Shown: positions 11,677 through 63,114 of the stretch, one piece after another
How the letters are laid out: the number at the start of each line of letters is the position of its first letter
Numbering within the stretch: position 1 is the first letter of the stretch
Virus record (IMG/VR): IMGVR_UViG_3300042260_000337
Length of the DNA: 64,000 nucleotides
Strand: one strand, 5' to 3'
From: a virus
Lineage: Duplodnaviria > Caudoviricetes
The notes under the pieces: generated by a model
The model's database searches: none
Seen by the model: the letters and a program-made list of their open reading frames with translations, nothing else
What the model was told of the DNA's origin: nothing
Program-made: the position numbers and the translations under genes

Positions 11677-12045
11677 TTAGTAATTCAAATATATTTTTTC
11701 AATGTATCCAGCATTTGTTACATTCGTAATACCAATAGAATCTCTATCAAGTATTGCTCGTAAAAAAACTAGATTGGCGACGAAGGTAATCCCCTCAACG
11801 CCAGTAAATGATTGATAATCTTTGTAAGGCATTCCGTTTAGAAGAATATTGAACCAGTCACTTTCGGTAGGATTGGTTGCTAATGTTCCTTGAATGCGAA
11901 CACGGCCCGATAGATTCTGCCCATATATGGCAATTGTATGCAGCCCGTCAGTATATCCATAATAACTATCGCCAGGAACGGGTGTCCCTGTAACATTTAG
12001 ATTTACTCCGCTGTTTCCCATAAGGGTAGAAGTTTTACGTGCCAT
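11677..12045 (-). CDS. Hypothetical (probable virion) protein
   Basis: 122 aa ORF in structural cluster. Confidence 0.55.
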   Translation of the reverse strand: MARKTSTLMGNSGVNLNVTGTPVPGDSYYGYTDGLHTIAIYGQNLSGRVRIQGTLATNPTESDWFNILLNGMPYKDYQSFTGVEGITFVANLVFLRAILDRDSIGITNVTNAGYIEKIYLNY

Positions 12046-12058
12046 CGTGATTGGTTCC

Positions 12059-12229
12059 TTACTCTTCTATTTTTTCTACTTCGACAACAACGCCAGAACC
12101 CAGCAGTTCTGCCACGACTTGTTCCAATGTTGAAACAATGTCATCTGACAAAACGCTGGGTTCTGAGTTGTTATTTTTGGTAAGTTTGGATACTTTGACT
12201 AGAAGGATTTCTTCTTTTATTTGTGCCAT
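12059..12229 (-). CDS. Small hypothetical protein (56 aa, MAQIKEEILLVKVSKL...)
   Basis: Read manually; SD GAGG upstream; fills gap between neighbours. Confidence 0.55.
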   Translation of the reverse strand: MAQIKEEILLVKVSKLTKNNNSEPSVLSDDIVSTLEQVVAELLGSGVVVEVEKIEE

Positions 12230-12290
12230 GGTTGTTTCCTCTTGTTATGCTTATTCTTATTTATCATAAGAACACAACAAGAGGAAATGG

Positions 12291-13025
12291 TCACTTTAGT
12301 TCGTCAATCAACACTGCTCGTTTTACTGAAAGGACCATATCTCCACCGATCATGGCCAAGTAACTTGCGGTTTGTTCATCGTCACATGCAACCGCTAATG
12401 TAGAGTATTGCCAATATCGTCGTTTATCTACCTCTGCAAGATTTGGAGATATGTAGATATTTTCCAATGAAGAAGCCATTTCTCTGAATGAAACCACTTC
12501 TTTAAGATCGACATCGCGACCAGCGATCATCGTAATCTTATAACGATGACGCTCATAATACAAACATTTTCTTACTTCTTCGGTTACGGAAAGTTTTGAC
12601 TTTACTTCGTCATAATCTTCAAATGCTGGCTCACATTCATCTATTGCAAACTCCCTGTAGTTTGCAAAGTTTTTAATTTGCTCATACAGTTCTTTTGACG
12701 TTATATAGATCAACGTATGGATAGAGTCATTGCGAACTTTGATTTCACCCTTGTTTGTCTGTGAAAGTTTTTCTATTTGGTCATGTAATCCTAATCTACG
12801 CGCCAATTCATCTTCTGTTGAAGGGTAATGTCGAACTGTAAAATGAGCACTATATCCAAAACTTCTGTTTTTTTCCGAAGTCATCGTTGATGGATTTAGG
12901 GCGTATTCCAAATATTTGTCATAAAAGTTGAATATAAGTTTAGTTCGTATTCTAAACTTATACTTCTTGTAAAATGGCTTTGTAACGATTTCTTTTTTGA
13001 TTCGTTTATACTTAAACATACTCAA
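12291..13025 (-). CDS. Hypothetical protein
   Basis: 244 aa ORF overlapping clpA stop. Confidence 0.6.
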   Translation of the reverse strand: MSMFKYKRIKKEIVTKPFYKKYKFRIRTKLIFNFYDKYLEYALNPSTMTSEKNRSFGYSAHFTVRHYPSTEDELARRLGLHDQIEKLSQTNKGEIKVRNDSIHTLIYITSKELYEQIKNFANYREFAIDECEPAFEDYDEVKSKLSVTEEVRKCLYYERHRYKITMIAGRDVDLKEVVSFREMASSLENIYISPNLAEVDKRRYWQYSTLAVACDDEQTASYLAMIGGDMVLSVKRAVLIDELK

Positions 13026-19488: not shown

Positions 19489-20616
19489 TTACATCCCCAT
19501 CCACACGGCACACTCATCCCACCGAGTGTTGGTGGTCAGGTGCTTTTCAATGTGCTTCAAGATCATTTCACGACCGTCTTTGCCGACGAAACGACCAAAC
19601 ACATACTGCGGAGCAAACGAGTCATTCTTCTGAATCGTAGGCATCCATTCTTGAGCATAACGCTTACGGTCAAGACCAGAAGCTACAACAGTGTTGTAAT
19701 ACCGATCATAACCTTCAATCAGCGCATGCAAACGTTCAGCAAACCGCTGTTCAAACTTCTCAATGCGTTCTTTCGTAGCATTGGGCAGCAGACCAACAGC
19801 ATCATCGATTTCCTCATTCAGAATGAGAGCAACGATGTTACGGTCAAACGTCACACGGTCCAAAGTCTTGTGAATACGAACATACCAGTCGTTTTTGATT
19901 TTGATCATATGACCATCAGCAAAACGAATGATGTCGCCCTCGCGGTTTTCACGCTCACGAGCCTTGGCAATGTAGTCCGACAGCGATTCGTTTACCGAAC
20001 CATAGACAGGAACCACATTGAAGGGAACATGACGATTGAACGGAACGTATTCGCCAGTCAAGTTGTCACGAATAGCCAACAGAACCAAGTCTGCGGTTTC
20101 ATACGGCAACACAATCTGATTGTCGGGAGCAACATACTCAAAGATAGGAGTTTTGTTGTCGGCAATCATGATTTCAATGAACTGAATCCGTTCTTCGTTC
20201 AGCAACTTTTCTGCATCTTCTGCAATATCAGTCACCCCCATCTTGGTGCCAAGACGGAACGAACCATTCAGGGGAACTGGACGAATCATAGAACCATCCA
20301 TCTTTTCCATGATGGTATGCGGAGCAGAAATATCAATCTCGTTGGATTGCGTTTCAGGACGTTCATTCACGTTGAAGAACTTATGAAACGGACGAGAAAT
20401 CAGTTTGCCTTCTTTGTCAAAGATCAAGCCGCGACATTCACGACGAATAGCACCACCAAGGTCTTCGGGACCATCCATGTCAAACGTGTCAATCATAGAC
20501 ACAGCATAGTTGATGACAGTGTAGTCGCCCTTGTCGGCAACGATGAACTCGTCACGGCCCTCAATATGAGGCAACACGTCATTGATAGTGCGGATTTCAG
20601 GGAACTTATATTTCAT
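19489..20616 (-). CDS. RNA ligase 1 (T4 Rnl1-like)
   Basis: ECRGLIF, RPFHKFFN, motif I EKMDGS, FEY, EG, KIKNDWY. Confidence 0.9.
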   Translation of the reverse strand: MKYKFPEIRTINDVLPHIEGRDEFIVADKGDYTVINYAVSMIDTFDMDGPEDLGGAIRRECRGLIFDKEGKLISRPFHKFFNVNERPETQSNEIDISAPHTIMEKMDGSMIRPVPLNGSFRLGTKMGVTDIAEDAEKLLNEERIQFIEIMIADNKTPIFEYVAPDNQIVLPYETADLVLLAIRDNLTGEYVPFNRHVPFNVVPVYGSVNESLSDYIAKARERENREGDIIRFADGHMIKIKNDWYVRIHKTLDRVTFDRNIVALILNEEIDDAVGLLPNATKERIEKFEQRFAERLHALIEGYDRYYNTVVASGLDRKRYAQEWMPTIQKNDSFAPQYVFGRFVGKDGREMILKHIEKHLTTNTRWDECAVWMGM

Positions 20617-60559: not shown

Positions 60560-60638
60560 TGGTCCTGCGGGAAGGATTCGAACCTTGCTCTCTCTGATCC
60601 ACAATCAGATGTGCTAACCGTTAACACTACTTCGCAGG
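60560..60638 (-). tRNA. tRNA-His(GUG), A73, no G-1, 2-nt bulge in acceptor stem
   Basis: TCTGA-TTGTGGA-TCAGA; CCTGCG(AA)G/CCGCAGG-A-CCA; -1 base is T. Confidence 0.82.
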
Positions 60639-60646
60639 ATTATTTT

Positions 60647-60724
<78 letters not shown>

Positions 60725-61044: not shown

Positions 61045-61130
61045 TGGTGTGGGGGGCTGGATTCGAACCAGCGTTGCTTTTCAGCGCCTGATTTACAGTC
61101 AGGTGGTTTCAACCGCTCACCCACCCCCAC
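61045..61130 (-). tRNA. tRNA-Tyr(GUA), second copy with different body
   Basis: CCTGA-CTGTAAA-TCAGG, V-arm, CCA. Confidence 0.92.
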
Positions 61131-61230
61131 AAGAACACAGTGACCCTAACCGTTCTAACCGCTGAACTACATCGCAGTTTGAAGCCGCAATGGAGGGATT
61201 TGAACCCCCGACCTGTGTAGTATGTGTATA
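61131..61230 (-). ncRNA. Circularly permuted tRNA-like gene (3' half transcribed before 5' half)
   Basis: AGGTC-GGGGG-TTCAAAT-CCCTC-CATTGCG-G-CTTCAAA-C-TGCGATG-TA-GTTC-AGCGGTTA-GAAC. Confidence 0.7.
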
Positions 61231-61235
61231 TTTTC

Positions 61236-61324
61236 GTAATGAGTGCTCTATCTGGATTCGAACCCTCGGACAGCATCAGCCCTACACCTACCGATCTGCT
61301 GACCGGAAAATAGGAGATCATTAC
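61236..61324 (-). ncRNA. T-loop-containing structured element
   Basis: GTAATGA/TCATTAC closing stem; TCAGC/GCTGA; GG-TTCGAAT-CC. Confidence 0.4.
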
Positions 61325-61330
61325 ATAGCC

Positions 61331-61413
61331 CGCACAACCACGAATCGAACGTGTTTTCTTGACAACTGTCTATATAGACCAACTACCAGGTAGCTACAAC
61401 TGGCTGTTGTGCG
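61331..61413 (-). ncRNA. tRNA-like element with 8-bp acceptor + 4-bp T-stem
   Basis: CGCACAAC/GTTGTGCG; CACG-TTCGATT-CGTG; no canonical D or anticodon arm. Confidence 0.5.
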
Positions 61414-61459
61414 ATTGTTGATGAGGTTTACCATGAGTCATTTTAACTCATCAACAATA

Positions 61460-61592
61460 TTTCTGTTTTCAACTGTAACAACTGTTGGACTCGAACCAAC
61501 CCCACCTTGTCCTGAAACTACTCGTAGTTATACTACTTTCGCCCAAGGTTTATGACACCCTTGCACCGTATTGTTACATGTGAAAACAGAAA
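61460..61592 (-). ncRNA. tRNA-like element enclosed in 12-bp helix
   Basis: TTTCTGTTTTCA/TGAAAACAGAAA; TGTAACAA/TTGTTACA; GTTGG-TTCGAGT-CCAAC. Confidence 0.45.
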
Positions 61593-61976: not shown

Positions 61977-63038
61977 TTATAGACCGTAACGTGTCTTATG
62001 AGCATTGAAGTTTTGAAGTAGTTCTGTTGCACTCAGTGCTCTGTTATAGAACCGTATTCCGCCTAACTTTCCATCTAACCAAGCAAAACTGTTATTGGTG
62101 GAACCAAACTGCAAAAACTCTGGACTATCAAAAAGGGCAGTTGTTGACAAATCACTTCTTGTGAATTTCGCAACTCCATTCCTGTAACCAGTAAGTGATG
62201 CCCCGCTTCTGACTACTGCAACATGATACCAAGTTCCAGTGACCATTGGTTCAGAGTTAGACCATAATCCATGATATAACCAGTTTGTGCCATCAAAACT
62301 ATATCTGAATGTTGGGCGATTTACCGCGCCAAACGCATCTATATATAAACCATAACTTCTGTTTGAGGACGCACCTTCTTTTTCAAAAATGGTTTGGTTA
62401 TTCACAGTATGTGCATCAATATTTACCCATACTTCCCAAGTGAAGTCGTTTGCGCCAACATCCAAAATGTCAGCTTGTGTATCACAAATAGCAGTAGCAG
62501 TAACATCAAAATCTAACACTCCACCATTTGAACTCAAATAAGTTACATCAGTGAGCGTTCCGTTGTATGCATTTGGTGAAAGGTCGTTCAACACAGTTCC
62601 AGTGCCAGGATAACTGTTGCCATCGCCAGGTTCGTAGTAAAGCTGTAGGCCACGTGTAGTCACAATATCGGTAGTTTCAGAAATGACTTCATATGACGCT
62701 GTTATTTGTATATCATTGGCAATACTTGCAAAAGAAACAATCGCATCAGATTCTTCAAGGTAAATGCCAATTTCTTTAGTCATCAAAGAAACAGAGGAAT
62801 TTGCAGGAACAGACACAGTGCTAAAAATAGAGTATGTAATGCCATTTCTTGAAATTTGAACTGTAACAAGAGCAGGATATAGTCTATCCACGTTAGTCGC
62901 TACTATTTGATTTACTTTTATTAGCTTACCAGAACCAGCCTCATTGAACAAAATGACTTTTGGTGTTAGTTGTAGAACGGAGGAAACGCTACTTTCTCCG
63001 TCTATATTTAGACTATTTGCTATATTTGGTGCAGTCAT
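61977..63038 (-). CDS. Virion-associated protein with C-terminal LamG/concanavalin-A-like domain
   Basis: GL.LYY..G..SYPG.GT..DLS; FTWEVWVN; WYHVAVVR; LGGIRFYNRALSA.E..QNFNA.K.RYGL. Confidence 0.75.
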   Translation of the reverse strand: MTAPNIANSLNIDGESSVSSVLQLTPKVILFNEAGSGKLIKVNQIVATNVDRLYPALVTVQISRNGITYSIFSTVSVPANSSVSLMTKEIGIYLEESDAIVSFASIANDIQITASYEVISETTDIVTTRGLQLYYEPGDGNSYPGTGTVLNDLSPNAYNGTLTDVTYLSSNGGVLDFDVTATAICDTQADILDVGANDFTWEVWVNIDAHTVNNQTIFEKEGASSNRSYGLYIDAFGAVNRPTFRYSFDGTNWLYHGLWSNSEPMVTGTWYHVAVVRSGASLTGYRNGVAKFTRSDLSTTALFDSPEFLQFGSTNNSFAWLDGKLGGIRFYNRALSATELLQNFNAHKTRYGL

Positions 63039-63114
63039 ATTATACCTCGTGATCAACATGTATACTTGATTTGAAGTTTTTTGTCAAGAATTATATGCTG
63101 TTTTATTTATCTAT

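What the first reader, a model, noticed from the sequence alone, without database searches (positions are those of the whole stretch)
61131..61230. Circularly permuted tRNA gene
Seen: in transcription order come V-loop AGGTC, T-arm (GGGGG-TTCAAAT-CCCTC) and acceptor 3' strand CATTGCG-G, then a 7-nt linker CTTCAAA, then C, acceptor 5' strand TGCGATG and a canonical D-arm (GTTC-AGCGGTTA-GAAC). The two acceptor strands pair over 7 bp, plus G73:C-1, so they belong to one tRNA. The open ends can pair as GTTAG/CTA(C)AC and TGTGT/ACACA. The linker capping the acceptor stem is itself anticodon-loop-like (CU-UCA-AA). Established: permuted tRNAs are known in some algae and an archaeon, and permuted tmRNA in alphaproteobacteria, but not to my knowledge in phages. 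Inference: either it matures via circularisation (Rnl1 is encoded in this window) or it acts as an uncharged inverted-tRNA decoy. The anticodon cannot be assigned (GUC or UCA register).
Basis: partly seen in the sequence, partly recalled or inferred. Interest (0 to 1): 0.8.

Follow-up and report, generated by a model that had tools for sequence, protein, structure and literature searches.

The report
Phage tRNA mimic, not permuted tRNA
A 100-base stretch in a giant phage's tRNA gene cluster encodes a tRNA-shaped RNA with its arms in rotated order, a capped acceptor stem and no anticodon loop; this is the already described 'Y RNA-like' (YrlA-type) tRNA mimic design rather than a working permuted tRNA gene, and here it lacks the usual partner-protein gene and binding motif.

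Summary
On the minus strand of 61131-61230 lie, in order, a variable loop, T arm, an 8-bp acceptor stem closed by a 7-nt loop, a D arm, and flanks that pair where the anticodon stem would be. All tRNA core contacts are kept.

This architecture is not new. It is the tRNA-like head of bacterial and phage YrlA-type Y RNAs (Chen 2014; Wang 2018), which those authors themselves call circularly permuted tRNAs with capped acceptor stems. This scan has already noted such modules in more than 130 other genomes.

In IMG/VR phage contigs I found 46 modules of this build. Forty-two are not part of any tRNA. All 10 near-complete genomes that carry one also encode a Ro60-type protein, usually within 2 kb.

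This copy is atypical:
- No Ro60-like gene in the 202 kb held (about 56% of the genome).
- None of the three candidate Ro60-handle motifs.
- No CCA in the loop.
- No anticodon loop can be rebuilt.

It has no sequence-diverged relatives, and no expression data could be obtained, so function is unproven.

Odds: about 55% a non-decoding tRNA-body mimic RNA, about 30% a dead junction of duplicated tRNA genes, about 3% a true permuted tRNA.

The parts
61131..61230 (-). Whole tRNA-like module (about 100 nt): capped, anticodon-less tRNA body with rotated arm order
   Evidence: Sequence read. Full-length but sub-threshold Rfam YrlA alignment over exactly these coordinates (30.4 bits, gathering score 69). 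60.3 bits with my own model R1 of phage modules.
61215..61227 (-). 5' flank strands: ACACA (61227-61223), UA, CUA(C)AC (61220-61215, equivalent to tRNA positions 39-43 with one bulged C)
   Evidence: Pairing with 61150-61146 has a chance of about 0.04. The same position-specific closing helix occurs in 11/44 phage modules against 3% in cross-paired controls.
61210..61214 (-). Variable loop AGGUC (A44 G45 G46 U47 C48)
   Evidence: C48 can form the Levitt pair with G15, and A44 can pair with G26.
61193..61209 (-). T arm, 5 bp plus loop UUCAAAU
   Evidence: local tmRNA/T-loop hit at 61193-61210. Together with the variable loop it is 23/23 identical to tRNA-Met(CAU) at 60647-60724.
61170..61192 (-). 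Acceptor-like stem, 7 bp plus C-1:G73, closed by the 7-nt loop CUUCAAA (61184-61178); no CCA
   Evidence: Chance about 5e-4. All 17 array tRNAs encode CCA but this element does not.
61152..61169 (-). U8 A9 and D arm (4 bp, loop AGCGGUUA with G18 G19)
61131..61151 (-). G26, GUUAG (equivalent to positions 27-31), internal-loop strand GGUCAC, UGUGU, and tail UCUU ending at the tRNA-Tyr 5' end
   Evidence: RNase P cleavage at the 5' end of tRNA-Tyr (61130) would define the 3' end; this is an inference from standard tRNA processing.
61045..61130 (-). tRNA-Tyr(GUA) directly abutting the module; first canonical tRNA of the array
   Evidence: 63.1 bits.

Best explanation
The element is a non-decoding tRNA-body mimic of the YrlA-head type. 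It would be a small RNA that folds into the tRNA L-shape with a loop-capped acceptor stem, and with a short helix formed by its own 5' and 3' flanks in place of the anticodon arm.

Shown:
- The sequence encodes T arm, capped 7+1-bp acceptor stem, D arm and closing helix in that order.
- Every nucleotide for the tRNA core contacts is present (U8-A14, G15-C48, G18/G19 with the T loop, G26-A44, G46, A9).
- It lies in the sense orientation inside the phage tRNA array, directly upstream of tRNA-Tyr.
- The same architecture recurs in many phage tRNA arrays and is there tied to Ro60-type proteins.

Inferred:
- It is transcribed with the array.
- Its 3' end is made by RNase P cutting at the 5' end of tRNA-Tyr.
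- It cannot be charged or decode, because it has no free CCA end and no anticodon loop.
- It acts through its tRNA elbow, as scaffold or decoy for a tRNA-body-binding protein. By analogy the first candidate is a Ro60-type protein, either phage-encoded in the unsequenced part or the host's Rsr. I put that specific partner at only about 0.3, because the known handle motifs are missing.
- Because the acceptor stem has the full 7 bp, RNase P might also open the cap, as in M. smegmatis YrlA.
- It most likely arose from a tandem pair of the phage's own tRNA genes. This is the origin that Wang et al. proposed for YrlA.
For: Anatomy:
-.
- The proposed fold is within 4.6 kcal/mol of the minimum free energy.

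The two halves match each other far better than different array tRNAs do: 1/272 cross-pairs reach 7/7.

Class evidence not built into my selection:
- Acceptor-strand complementarity among 118 IMG/VR pattern hits is bimodal, with 28 at 7/7.
- 42 of 46 distinct modules overlap no ARAGORN tRNA on either side.
- Many caps are GNRA or UUCG tetraloops.
- A closing helix at positions 27-31/39-43 occurs in 11/44 modules against 3% in cross-paired controls.

Link to Ro60-type proteins:
- TROVE is present in 8/23 records with closed modules against 2/35 records with ordinary tRNA junctions (Fisher p 0.0097).
- With vWA_Ro60 and DUF2828 added, all 10 records that are at least 83% complete have a Ro60-type protein.
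- The gene is mostly within 2 kb on the same strand.
- The DUF2828 protein folds as Ro60.

Other points:
- The closest look-alikes of this T arm (L227, L230) sit just upstream of TROVE genes.
- The upstream neighbours are degraded tRNA-like pieces, while all four helices of this module are perfect.
[quoted passage not shown] Examples from 22 phages are reported (PMC4201824).
Against: - No evolutionary test was possible. The three other assemblies are 100% identical. No IMG/VR or JGI contig holds a diverged copy.
- Expression could not be examined.
- The 202 kb held contains no TROVE, vWA_Ro60, DUF2828, DUF7788 or RtcB.
- None of the handle motifs is present (GNCGAAN0-1G, UUACUUC, UACAGCAA).
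- The Rfam YrlA score of 30.4 bits is hardly above what ordinary tRNA-tRNA junctions give (26-27 bits in phage PA5oct).
- The basal pairing is short. Only the inner helix is mildly non-random.
- All pairings and core nucleotides would also be inherited passively by a junction of two copies of one tRNA.
- The 23/23 identity of the T arm to tRNA-Met could mean recent copying rather than selection.
Confidence: 0.55

Rival explanations
1. It is a dead junction. Two tandem copies of one phage tRNA gene lost the 5' half of the first copy and the 3' half of the second, for instance when tRNA-Tyr was inserted. What remains looks permuted, but it is only spacer in the array transcript and is degraded after processing.
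For: - tRNA arrays evolve by duplication. The T arm is 23/23 identical to that of tRNA-Met 60647-60724, and the Met-His junction itself shows 6/7 acceptor complementarity.
- The 300 nt upstream hold degraded tRNA-like pieces, with T loops at 61495, 61349 and 61262 and a pseudo-tRNA at 61328-61414.
- With relaxed settings ARAGORN can force a poor normal-order tRNA onto the 3' half.
- There is no handle motif and no partner gene.
- The outer helix is not beyond chance.
Against: - Uniform decay is not what is seen. All four helices (5, 8, 4 and 5 bp) and about ten core positions are intact, while the supposed missing halves are unrecognisable.
- The encoded CCA expected at a junction of array tRNAs is absent and is replaced by a compact 7-nt cap.
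- The same truncation phase recurs in 11/44 independent phage modules.
- In near-complete phage genomes such modules always co-occur with Ro60-type genes. This argues that the architecture is generally selected.
Confidence: 0.3
2. It is a Y-RNA-like mimic whose cap is opened. RNase P cuts before U1 and the 3' strand is trimmed and CCA-tailed. This gives a two-piece, tRNA-shaped RNA with a free acceptor end, as shown for M. smegmatis YrlA.
For: - The acceptor stem has the full 7 bp. Chen et al. name this as the determinant that makes M. smegmatis YrlA an RNase P substrate in vitro and in vivo (PMC4201824, read).
- 11 of 46 phage modules encode N-CCA at the start of the cap loop, against about 0.7 expected. 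Opening is therefore probably used by part of the class.
Against: - This copy encodes no CCA.
- C-1 pairs with G73, which extends the stem to 8 bp.
- There are no processing data.
Confidence: 0.1
3. It is a true circularly permuted tRNA gene. The ends are joined, for example by the phage Rnl1, and the cap is opened, giving a decoding tRNA.
For: - The permuted order is real.
- Rnl1 is encoded at 19489-20616.
- RNase P processing of tRNA-Tyr would leave a 3'-OH on the element.
Against: - Joining the flanks cannot give a 7-nt loop with U33 and a purine at 37. The strands available are GGUCAC and UA.
- There is no bulge-helix-bulge motif, and no splicing endonuclease is known in bacteria (10.1101/312249).
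- No CCA is encoded, unlike all 17 array tRNAs.
- A normal tRNA-Asp(GUC) exists elsewhere in the genome.
Confidence: 0.03

Closest known systems
YrlA (Y RNA-like A, Rfam RF02553), the tRNA-like domain of bacterial and phage Y RNAs bound by Ro60/Rsr (Chen et al. 2014, PMC4201824; Wang et al. 2018, 10.1101/312249, PDB 6CU1)
   Same: - The order is variable loop, T arm, loop-capped acceptor-like stem, D arm.
- The anticodon-stem equivalent is formed by the 5' and 3' flanks and carries an irregularity (a kink in YrlA, a bulged C here).
- All tRNA core contacts are kept.
- There is no free CCA and no anticodon loop.
- A YUAY (here CUAC) lies before the variable loop.
- Some examples are encoded next to tRNAs.
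   Different: - There is no GNCGAAN0-1G motif in the element.
- There is no long Ro60-binding stem.
- No Ro60 gene lies within 4 kb or within the 202 kb held.
- The score is 30.4 bits against a gathering score of 69.
- The element is only about 100 nt with 5+5 bp of basal pairing.
- Its arms resemble the phage's own tRNAs, so it is probably an independent derivation.
M. smegmatis YrlA
   Same: [quoted passage not shown]
   Different: That RNA is shown to be bound by Rsr, cleaved and CCA-tailed. Nothing is known for this one.
Phage Ro60-linked tRNA-like modules in tRNA arrays
   Same: They share the head architecture and the location inside phage tRNA arrays. L227 and L230 share the same T arm. 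L190 shares the closing helix plus internal loop plus outer helix layout.
   Different: Those have long basal stems, handle motifs (UUACUUC or UACAGCAA) and a TROVE or DUF2828 gene, usually within 2 kb. This one has none of these.
Circularly permuted tRNA genes of Cyanidioschyzon merolae and other algae and one archaeon (Soma 2007, as cited in 10.1101/312249)
   Same: The 3' half lies upstream of the 5' half. [quoted passage not shown]
   Different: Those carry a bulge-helix-bulge site, are cut and ligated by the splicing machinery, and yield a tRNA with a proper anticodon loop. Here no anticodon loop can be formed and the machinery is absent.
DUF7873-associated one- or two-headed tRNA-mimic RNAs
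   Same: They have a capped permuted tRNA head, sit in phage tRNA clusters, and have no Ro60.
   Different: No gene with a DUF7873 hit lies within 6 kb (precomputed Pfam). Only one clear head is present. I could not search the whole genome for that family because I had no accession.

Membership tests
YrlA / bacterial Y RNA (RF02553) | tRNA-like domain in the order V, T arm, capped acceptor-like stem, D arm | tested here: met
YrlA / bacterial Y RNA (RF02553) | Nucleotides for the tRNA tertiary contacts, including the G15:C48 Levitt pair and the G18/G19-T loop contacts | tested here: met
   Read directly: U8, A14, G15, G18, G19, A21, G26, A44, G46, C48, U54-A58, C56.
YrlA / bacterial Y RNA (RF02553) | GNCGAAN0-1G motif near the 5' end (presumed Ro60/Rsr contact) | tested here: not met
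   Not present in or next to the element; only UACGAAAA at 61237-61230. One match, GGCGAAAG, lies 300 nt upstream at 61543-61536, with a chance of about 0.16.
YrlA / bacterial Y RNA (RF02553) | Long stem formed by the 5' and 3' ends | tested here: inconclusive
   Only 5 bp plus 5 bp. The inner helix has p about 0.04. The flank duplex is not better than shuffles.
YrlA / bacterial Y RNA (RF02553) | Encoded within about 4 kb of a Ro60/rsr gene on the same strand | tested here: not met
   No TROVE, vWA_Ro60, DUF2828 or DUF7788 in 202 kb. The neighbours are Laminin_G_3, a decarboxylase, tRNAs and Sir2. The genome is only about 56% complete.
YrlA / bacterial Y RNA (RF02553) | Rfam gathering score (69 bits) | tested here: not met
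   30.4 bits. Ro60-linked phage modules also score only 28-48, and plain tRNA junctions score 26-27. The score therefore decides nothing.
Circularly permuted tRNA genes (algal/archaeal type) | 3' half upstream of 5' half, joined through the acceptor ends | tested here: met
Circularly permuted tRNA genes (algal/archaeal type) | Flanks form a bulge-helix-bulge site, and joining them yields a canonical 7-nt anticodon loop | tested here: not met
   The internal loop is 2 x 6 nt (UA / GGUCAC). No U33 or purine-37 register is possible.
Circularly permuted tRNA genes (algal/archaeal type) | A mature, CCA-tailed, end-joined tRNA is made | not testable with these tools
DUF7873-linked tRNA-mimic RNA (earlier notes of this scan) | DUF7873 gene directly upstream of the RNA | tested here: not met
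   No such hit among the precomputed Pfam calls for genes within 6 kb. The rest of the genome was not tested.

The most novel reading that the evidence does not exclude
The phage uses a minimal, handle-less, Ro60-independent tRNA body. This would be a free-standing 'tRNA elbow' RNA cut out of the array transcript. It might be sealed into a nuclease-resistant circle by the phage Rnl1, since RNase P would leave it a 3'-OH. It would titrate or recruit a tRNA-elbow-binding factor, such as a host tRNA-directed defence nuclease, RNase P or a modification enzyme. That would make it one of several tRNA mimics in this array that act as a counter-defence set.
Probability: 0.12. Interest if true: 0.65.

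Novelty: new variant of a known kind. Interest (0 to 1): 0.33.

Why it matters
If it is functional, this copy would show that the capped tRNA head of Y RNAs can work, or at least persist, without the Ro60-binding handle and without a nearby Ro60 gene. [quoted passage not shown]

Closed tRNA-like modules in phage tRNA arrays go together with Ro60-type genes in all 10 near-complete genomes examined. Two different candidate handle motifs follow two different Ro60 subfamilies.

For annotation, the practical lesson is that such elements should be called tRNA mimics, not permuted tRNA genes or pseudogenes.

Tried and rejected
1. Relatives of the element. There was no nucleotide match in cultured phages, by megablast or blastn. 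A specific pattern gave no IMG/VR match. Four JGI matches turned out to be unrelated modules or tRNA junctions. Contigs carrying the neighbouring Laminin_G_3 protein are either 100% identical or not syntenic.

2. The Rfam YrlA hit as proof of membership. I rejected this, because plain tRNA-tRNA junctions of PA5oct reach 26-27 bits.

3. My own covariance model R1. It does not separate closed modules from ordinary junctions; the Met-His junction scores 51 bits. The 100% pairing of the acceptor helix in alignment A1 follows from my selection rule and is not evidence.

4. Orthology with the module of the related 283-kb phage G024. That module is also upstream of Sir2, but the flank similarity (17/23) is not significant, p 0.23.

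5. Origin as a copy of the Met-His junction. Only the T arm matches specifically. The D-arm half is no closer to His than to Trp or Val.

6. MFE folding. It does not recover the cloverleaf, as is common for tRNAs, and is not informative.

7. Candidate partner proteins of 230-245 aa upstream of modules in other loci. They share no similarity with each other or with any window ORF.

8. Expression data.

Full report
**Observation.** On the minus strand, window 61230-61131 reads in transcription order as follows:
- ACACA, UA, CUA(C)AC
- variable loop AGGUC
- a 5-bp T arm with loop UUCAAAU
- the acceptor 3' strand plus G73
- a 7-nt loop CUUCAAA
- C(-1) plus the acceptor 5' strand
- U8 A9
- a 4-bp D arm with loop AGCGGUUA
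- G26, GUUAG, GGUCAC, UGUGU, UCUU

tRNA-Tyr begins at the next base, 61130. So is the presence of Rnl1, at ORF 19489-20616.

The acceptor strands form 7 pairs plus C-1:G73. The chance for random sequence is about 5e-4. Among the 272 ordered cross-pairs of the 17 tRNAs of this array, only one reaches 7/7. The two halves therefore belong to one tRNA body.

GUUAG pairs with CUA(C)AC exactly where an anticodon stem would sit, next to a G26/A44 pair. The chance with one bulge allowed is about 0.04.

All nucleotides of the tRNA core contacts are present. The proposed fold lies 4.6 kcal/mol above the minimum free energy, which is usual for tRNAs. ARAGORN and the Rfam tRNA model do not call it.

**What kind of thing it is.** A permissive Rfam scan aligns the whole of RF02553 (YrlA, Y RNA-like) to exactly 61131-61230, at 30.4 bits against a gathering score of 69.

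YrlA RNAs are partners of the bacterial Ro60 protein (Rsr). Their effector domain is a tRNA look-alike in the order V, T arm, capped acceptor-like stem, D arm, closed by a stem made of the RNA's two ends (PMC4201824). [quoted passage not shown] It also says they lack a CCA end, have a kink in the anticodon-stem equivalent, and may have arisen, possibly several times, from dimeric tRNA precursors (10.1101/312249). Chen et al. list 22 phages.

The Rfam score itself proves nothing. Ordinary tRNA-tRNA junctions of the nearest cultured relative score 26-27 bits. That relative is Pseudomonas phage PA5oct, whose clamp loader is 56% identical. Conversely, Ro60-linked phage modules score only 28-48 bits.

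**The class in phages.**
- A pattern built from the T loop and D arm found 118 sites in IMG/VR. Complementarity between the acceptor 3' strand and the following 5' strand is bimodal, with 28 sites at 7/7.
- A looser scan gave 46 distinct modules. Forty-two overlap no ARAGORN tRNA on either side.
- Many caps are GAAA, GCAA or UUCG tetraloops. Eleven caps begin with N-CCA, against 0.7 expected.
- Flanks were not used in selecting the modules. Even so, 11 of 44 modules have a 5-bp closing helix at positions 27-31/39-43, against 3% of cross-paired controls.
- Pairs of true homologues keep their flanks but have entirely different, still paired, cap stems. Examples are L220/L221 and G024/L230.

**Link to Ro60.**
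- TROVE occurs in 8 of 23 records with closed modules, against 2 of 35 records whose pattern hit is an ordinary junction (Fisher p 0.0097).
- Adding vWA_Ro60 and DUF2828, all 10 records that are at least 83% complete encode such a protein.
- The gene is usually within 2 kb on the same strand.
- I modelled the DUF2828 protein of phage G024. Its 12 best PDB matches are all Ro60/TROVE structures over the full length, including a Thermus phage Ro60.
- Two candidate handle motifs follow the two subfamilies. UUACUUC goes with TROVE, and UACAGCAA with DUF2828. The second motif had been noted earlier in this scan.

**How this copy differs.**
- The 202-kb record is about 56% complete by CheckV, and related phages have about 285 kb. 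It contains no TROVE, vWA_Ro60, DUF2828, DUF7788 or RtcB.
- Genes within 6 kb are a Laminin_G_3 protein, a decarboxylase, methyltransferases, Sir2 and tRNAs.
- None of the three handle motifs is present.
- The outer ACACA/UGUGU pairing is not beyond chance.
- The cap encodes no CCA, although all 17 tRNAs of the array do.
- The variable loop plus T arm is 23/23 identical to tRNA-Met(CAU) at 60647-60724, so the element probably derives from the phage's own tRNAs.
- The related 283-kb phage G024 shares genes at 50-70% identity with scrambled synteny. It has a closed module upstream of its Sir2 gene and a Ro60-like gene 47 kb away. Its flank similarity to this element is not significant.

**Why function stays unproven.** The other assemblies of this phage are 100% identical over 8 kb. 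No diverged copy exists in the collections searched. Read data are not available for this window.

A junction of two copies of one tRNA would inherit every pairing seen here. The 300 nt upstream are full of degraded tRNA-like pieces.

Against plain decay:
- The four helices are perfectly preserved, next to unrecognisable 'missing halves'.
- The expected CCA has been replaced by a compact cap.
- The same truncation phase recurs across phages.

**Verdict.**
- Most likely (0.55): a non-decoding tRNA-body mimic, released from the array transcript by RNase P cutting at tRNA-Tyr and acting through its tRNA elbow. A Ro60-type partner is possible, at about 0.3, but is not indicated by any motif.
- Dead junction: 0.3.
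- Cap-opened two-piece form, as in M. smegmatis: 0.1.
- True permuted tRNA matured by ligation: 0.03. No anticodon loop can be formed, and there is no bulge-helix-bulge site or CCA.

The finding is a new variant of a known kind. The same architecture has been noted by this scan in more than 130 other genomes.

Noticed in passing
window 61231-61560 (minus strand): The roughly 330 nt between the likely array promoter and the element hold three more T-loop hairpins (61495-61489, 61349-61343, 61262-61256). They also hold a pseudo-tRNA with a perfect acceptor stem but a poor D arm (61328-61414, called only at relaxed ARAGORN settings). One exact GNCGAAN0-1G match, GGCGAAAG, lies at 61543-61536. This may be debris, or a larger structured leader RNA.
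   Followed up: partly
own genome outside the window, L004:805-1267 (G000 about 120871-121333): A GOLLD RNA (RF02032, 193 bits, E 3e-54) with an embedded tRNA-Arg(UCU)-like domain, next to a second tRNA array. Also noted earlier in this scan.
   Followed up: partly
own genome, L004:1576-1652; also L009:4171-4246: A tRNA with anticodon CUA (amber suppressor) is present in this phage and in the related 283-kb phage G024.
   Followed up: no
window 60601-60688 (minus strand): tRNA-Met(CAU) 60647-60724 and tRNA-His 60560-60638 are 8 nt apart, and their facing acceptor strands pair 6/7. Three CAU tRNAs exist in the array, and a TilS-like ATP_bind_3 gene lies just beyond the window end (L207:1685-2278). 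This suggests one of the three is a lysidine-dependent tRNA-Ile2.
   Followed up: no
IMG/VR loci L016, L093, L117, L149, L206 versus L009, L096, L179, L193: Two candidate handle motifs upstream of capped tRNA-like modules sort by partner. UUACUUC is found where a TROVE gene is adjacent. UACAGCAA is found where the Ro60-like gene is of the DUF2828 type.
   Followed up: partly
IMG/VR loci such as L190:7888-7965, L156:12704-12786 and L150:10532-10609: 11 of 46 capped modules encode discriminator plus CCA at the start of the cap loop. This suggests that part of the class is opened by RNase P to expose a CCA end, as in M. smegmatis YrlA.
   Followed up: partly
L126:5180-5400: A capped tRNA-like module appears nested between the D arm and T arm of an outer tRNA-like frame, where the outer anticodon arm would be. 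It looks like a tRNA within a tRNA.
   Followed up: no
G022 (record of L193) 11763-12485: The DUF2828 (Ro60-like) reading frame carries several in-frame TGA codons, which suggests a phage that reads TGA as sense.
   Followed up: no
L117:8279-9835 and window 61977-63059: In two unrelated phages, a Laminin_G_3 (lectin-like, probably structural) gene lies next to the capped tRNA-like module. This is probably coincidence.
   Followed up: no
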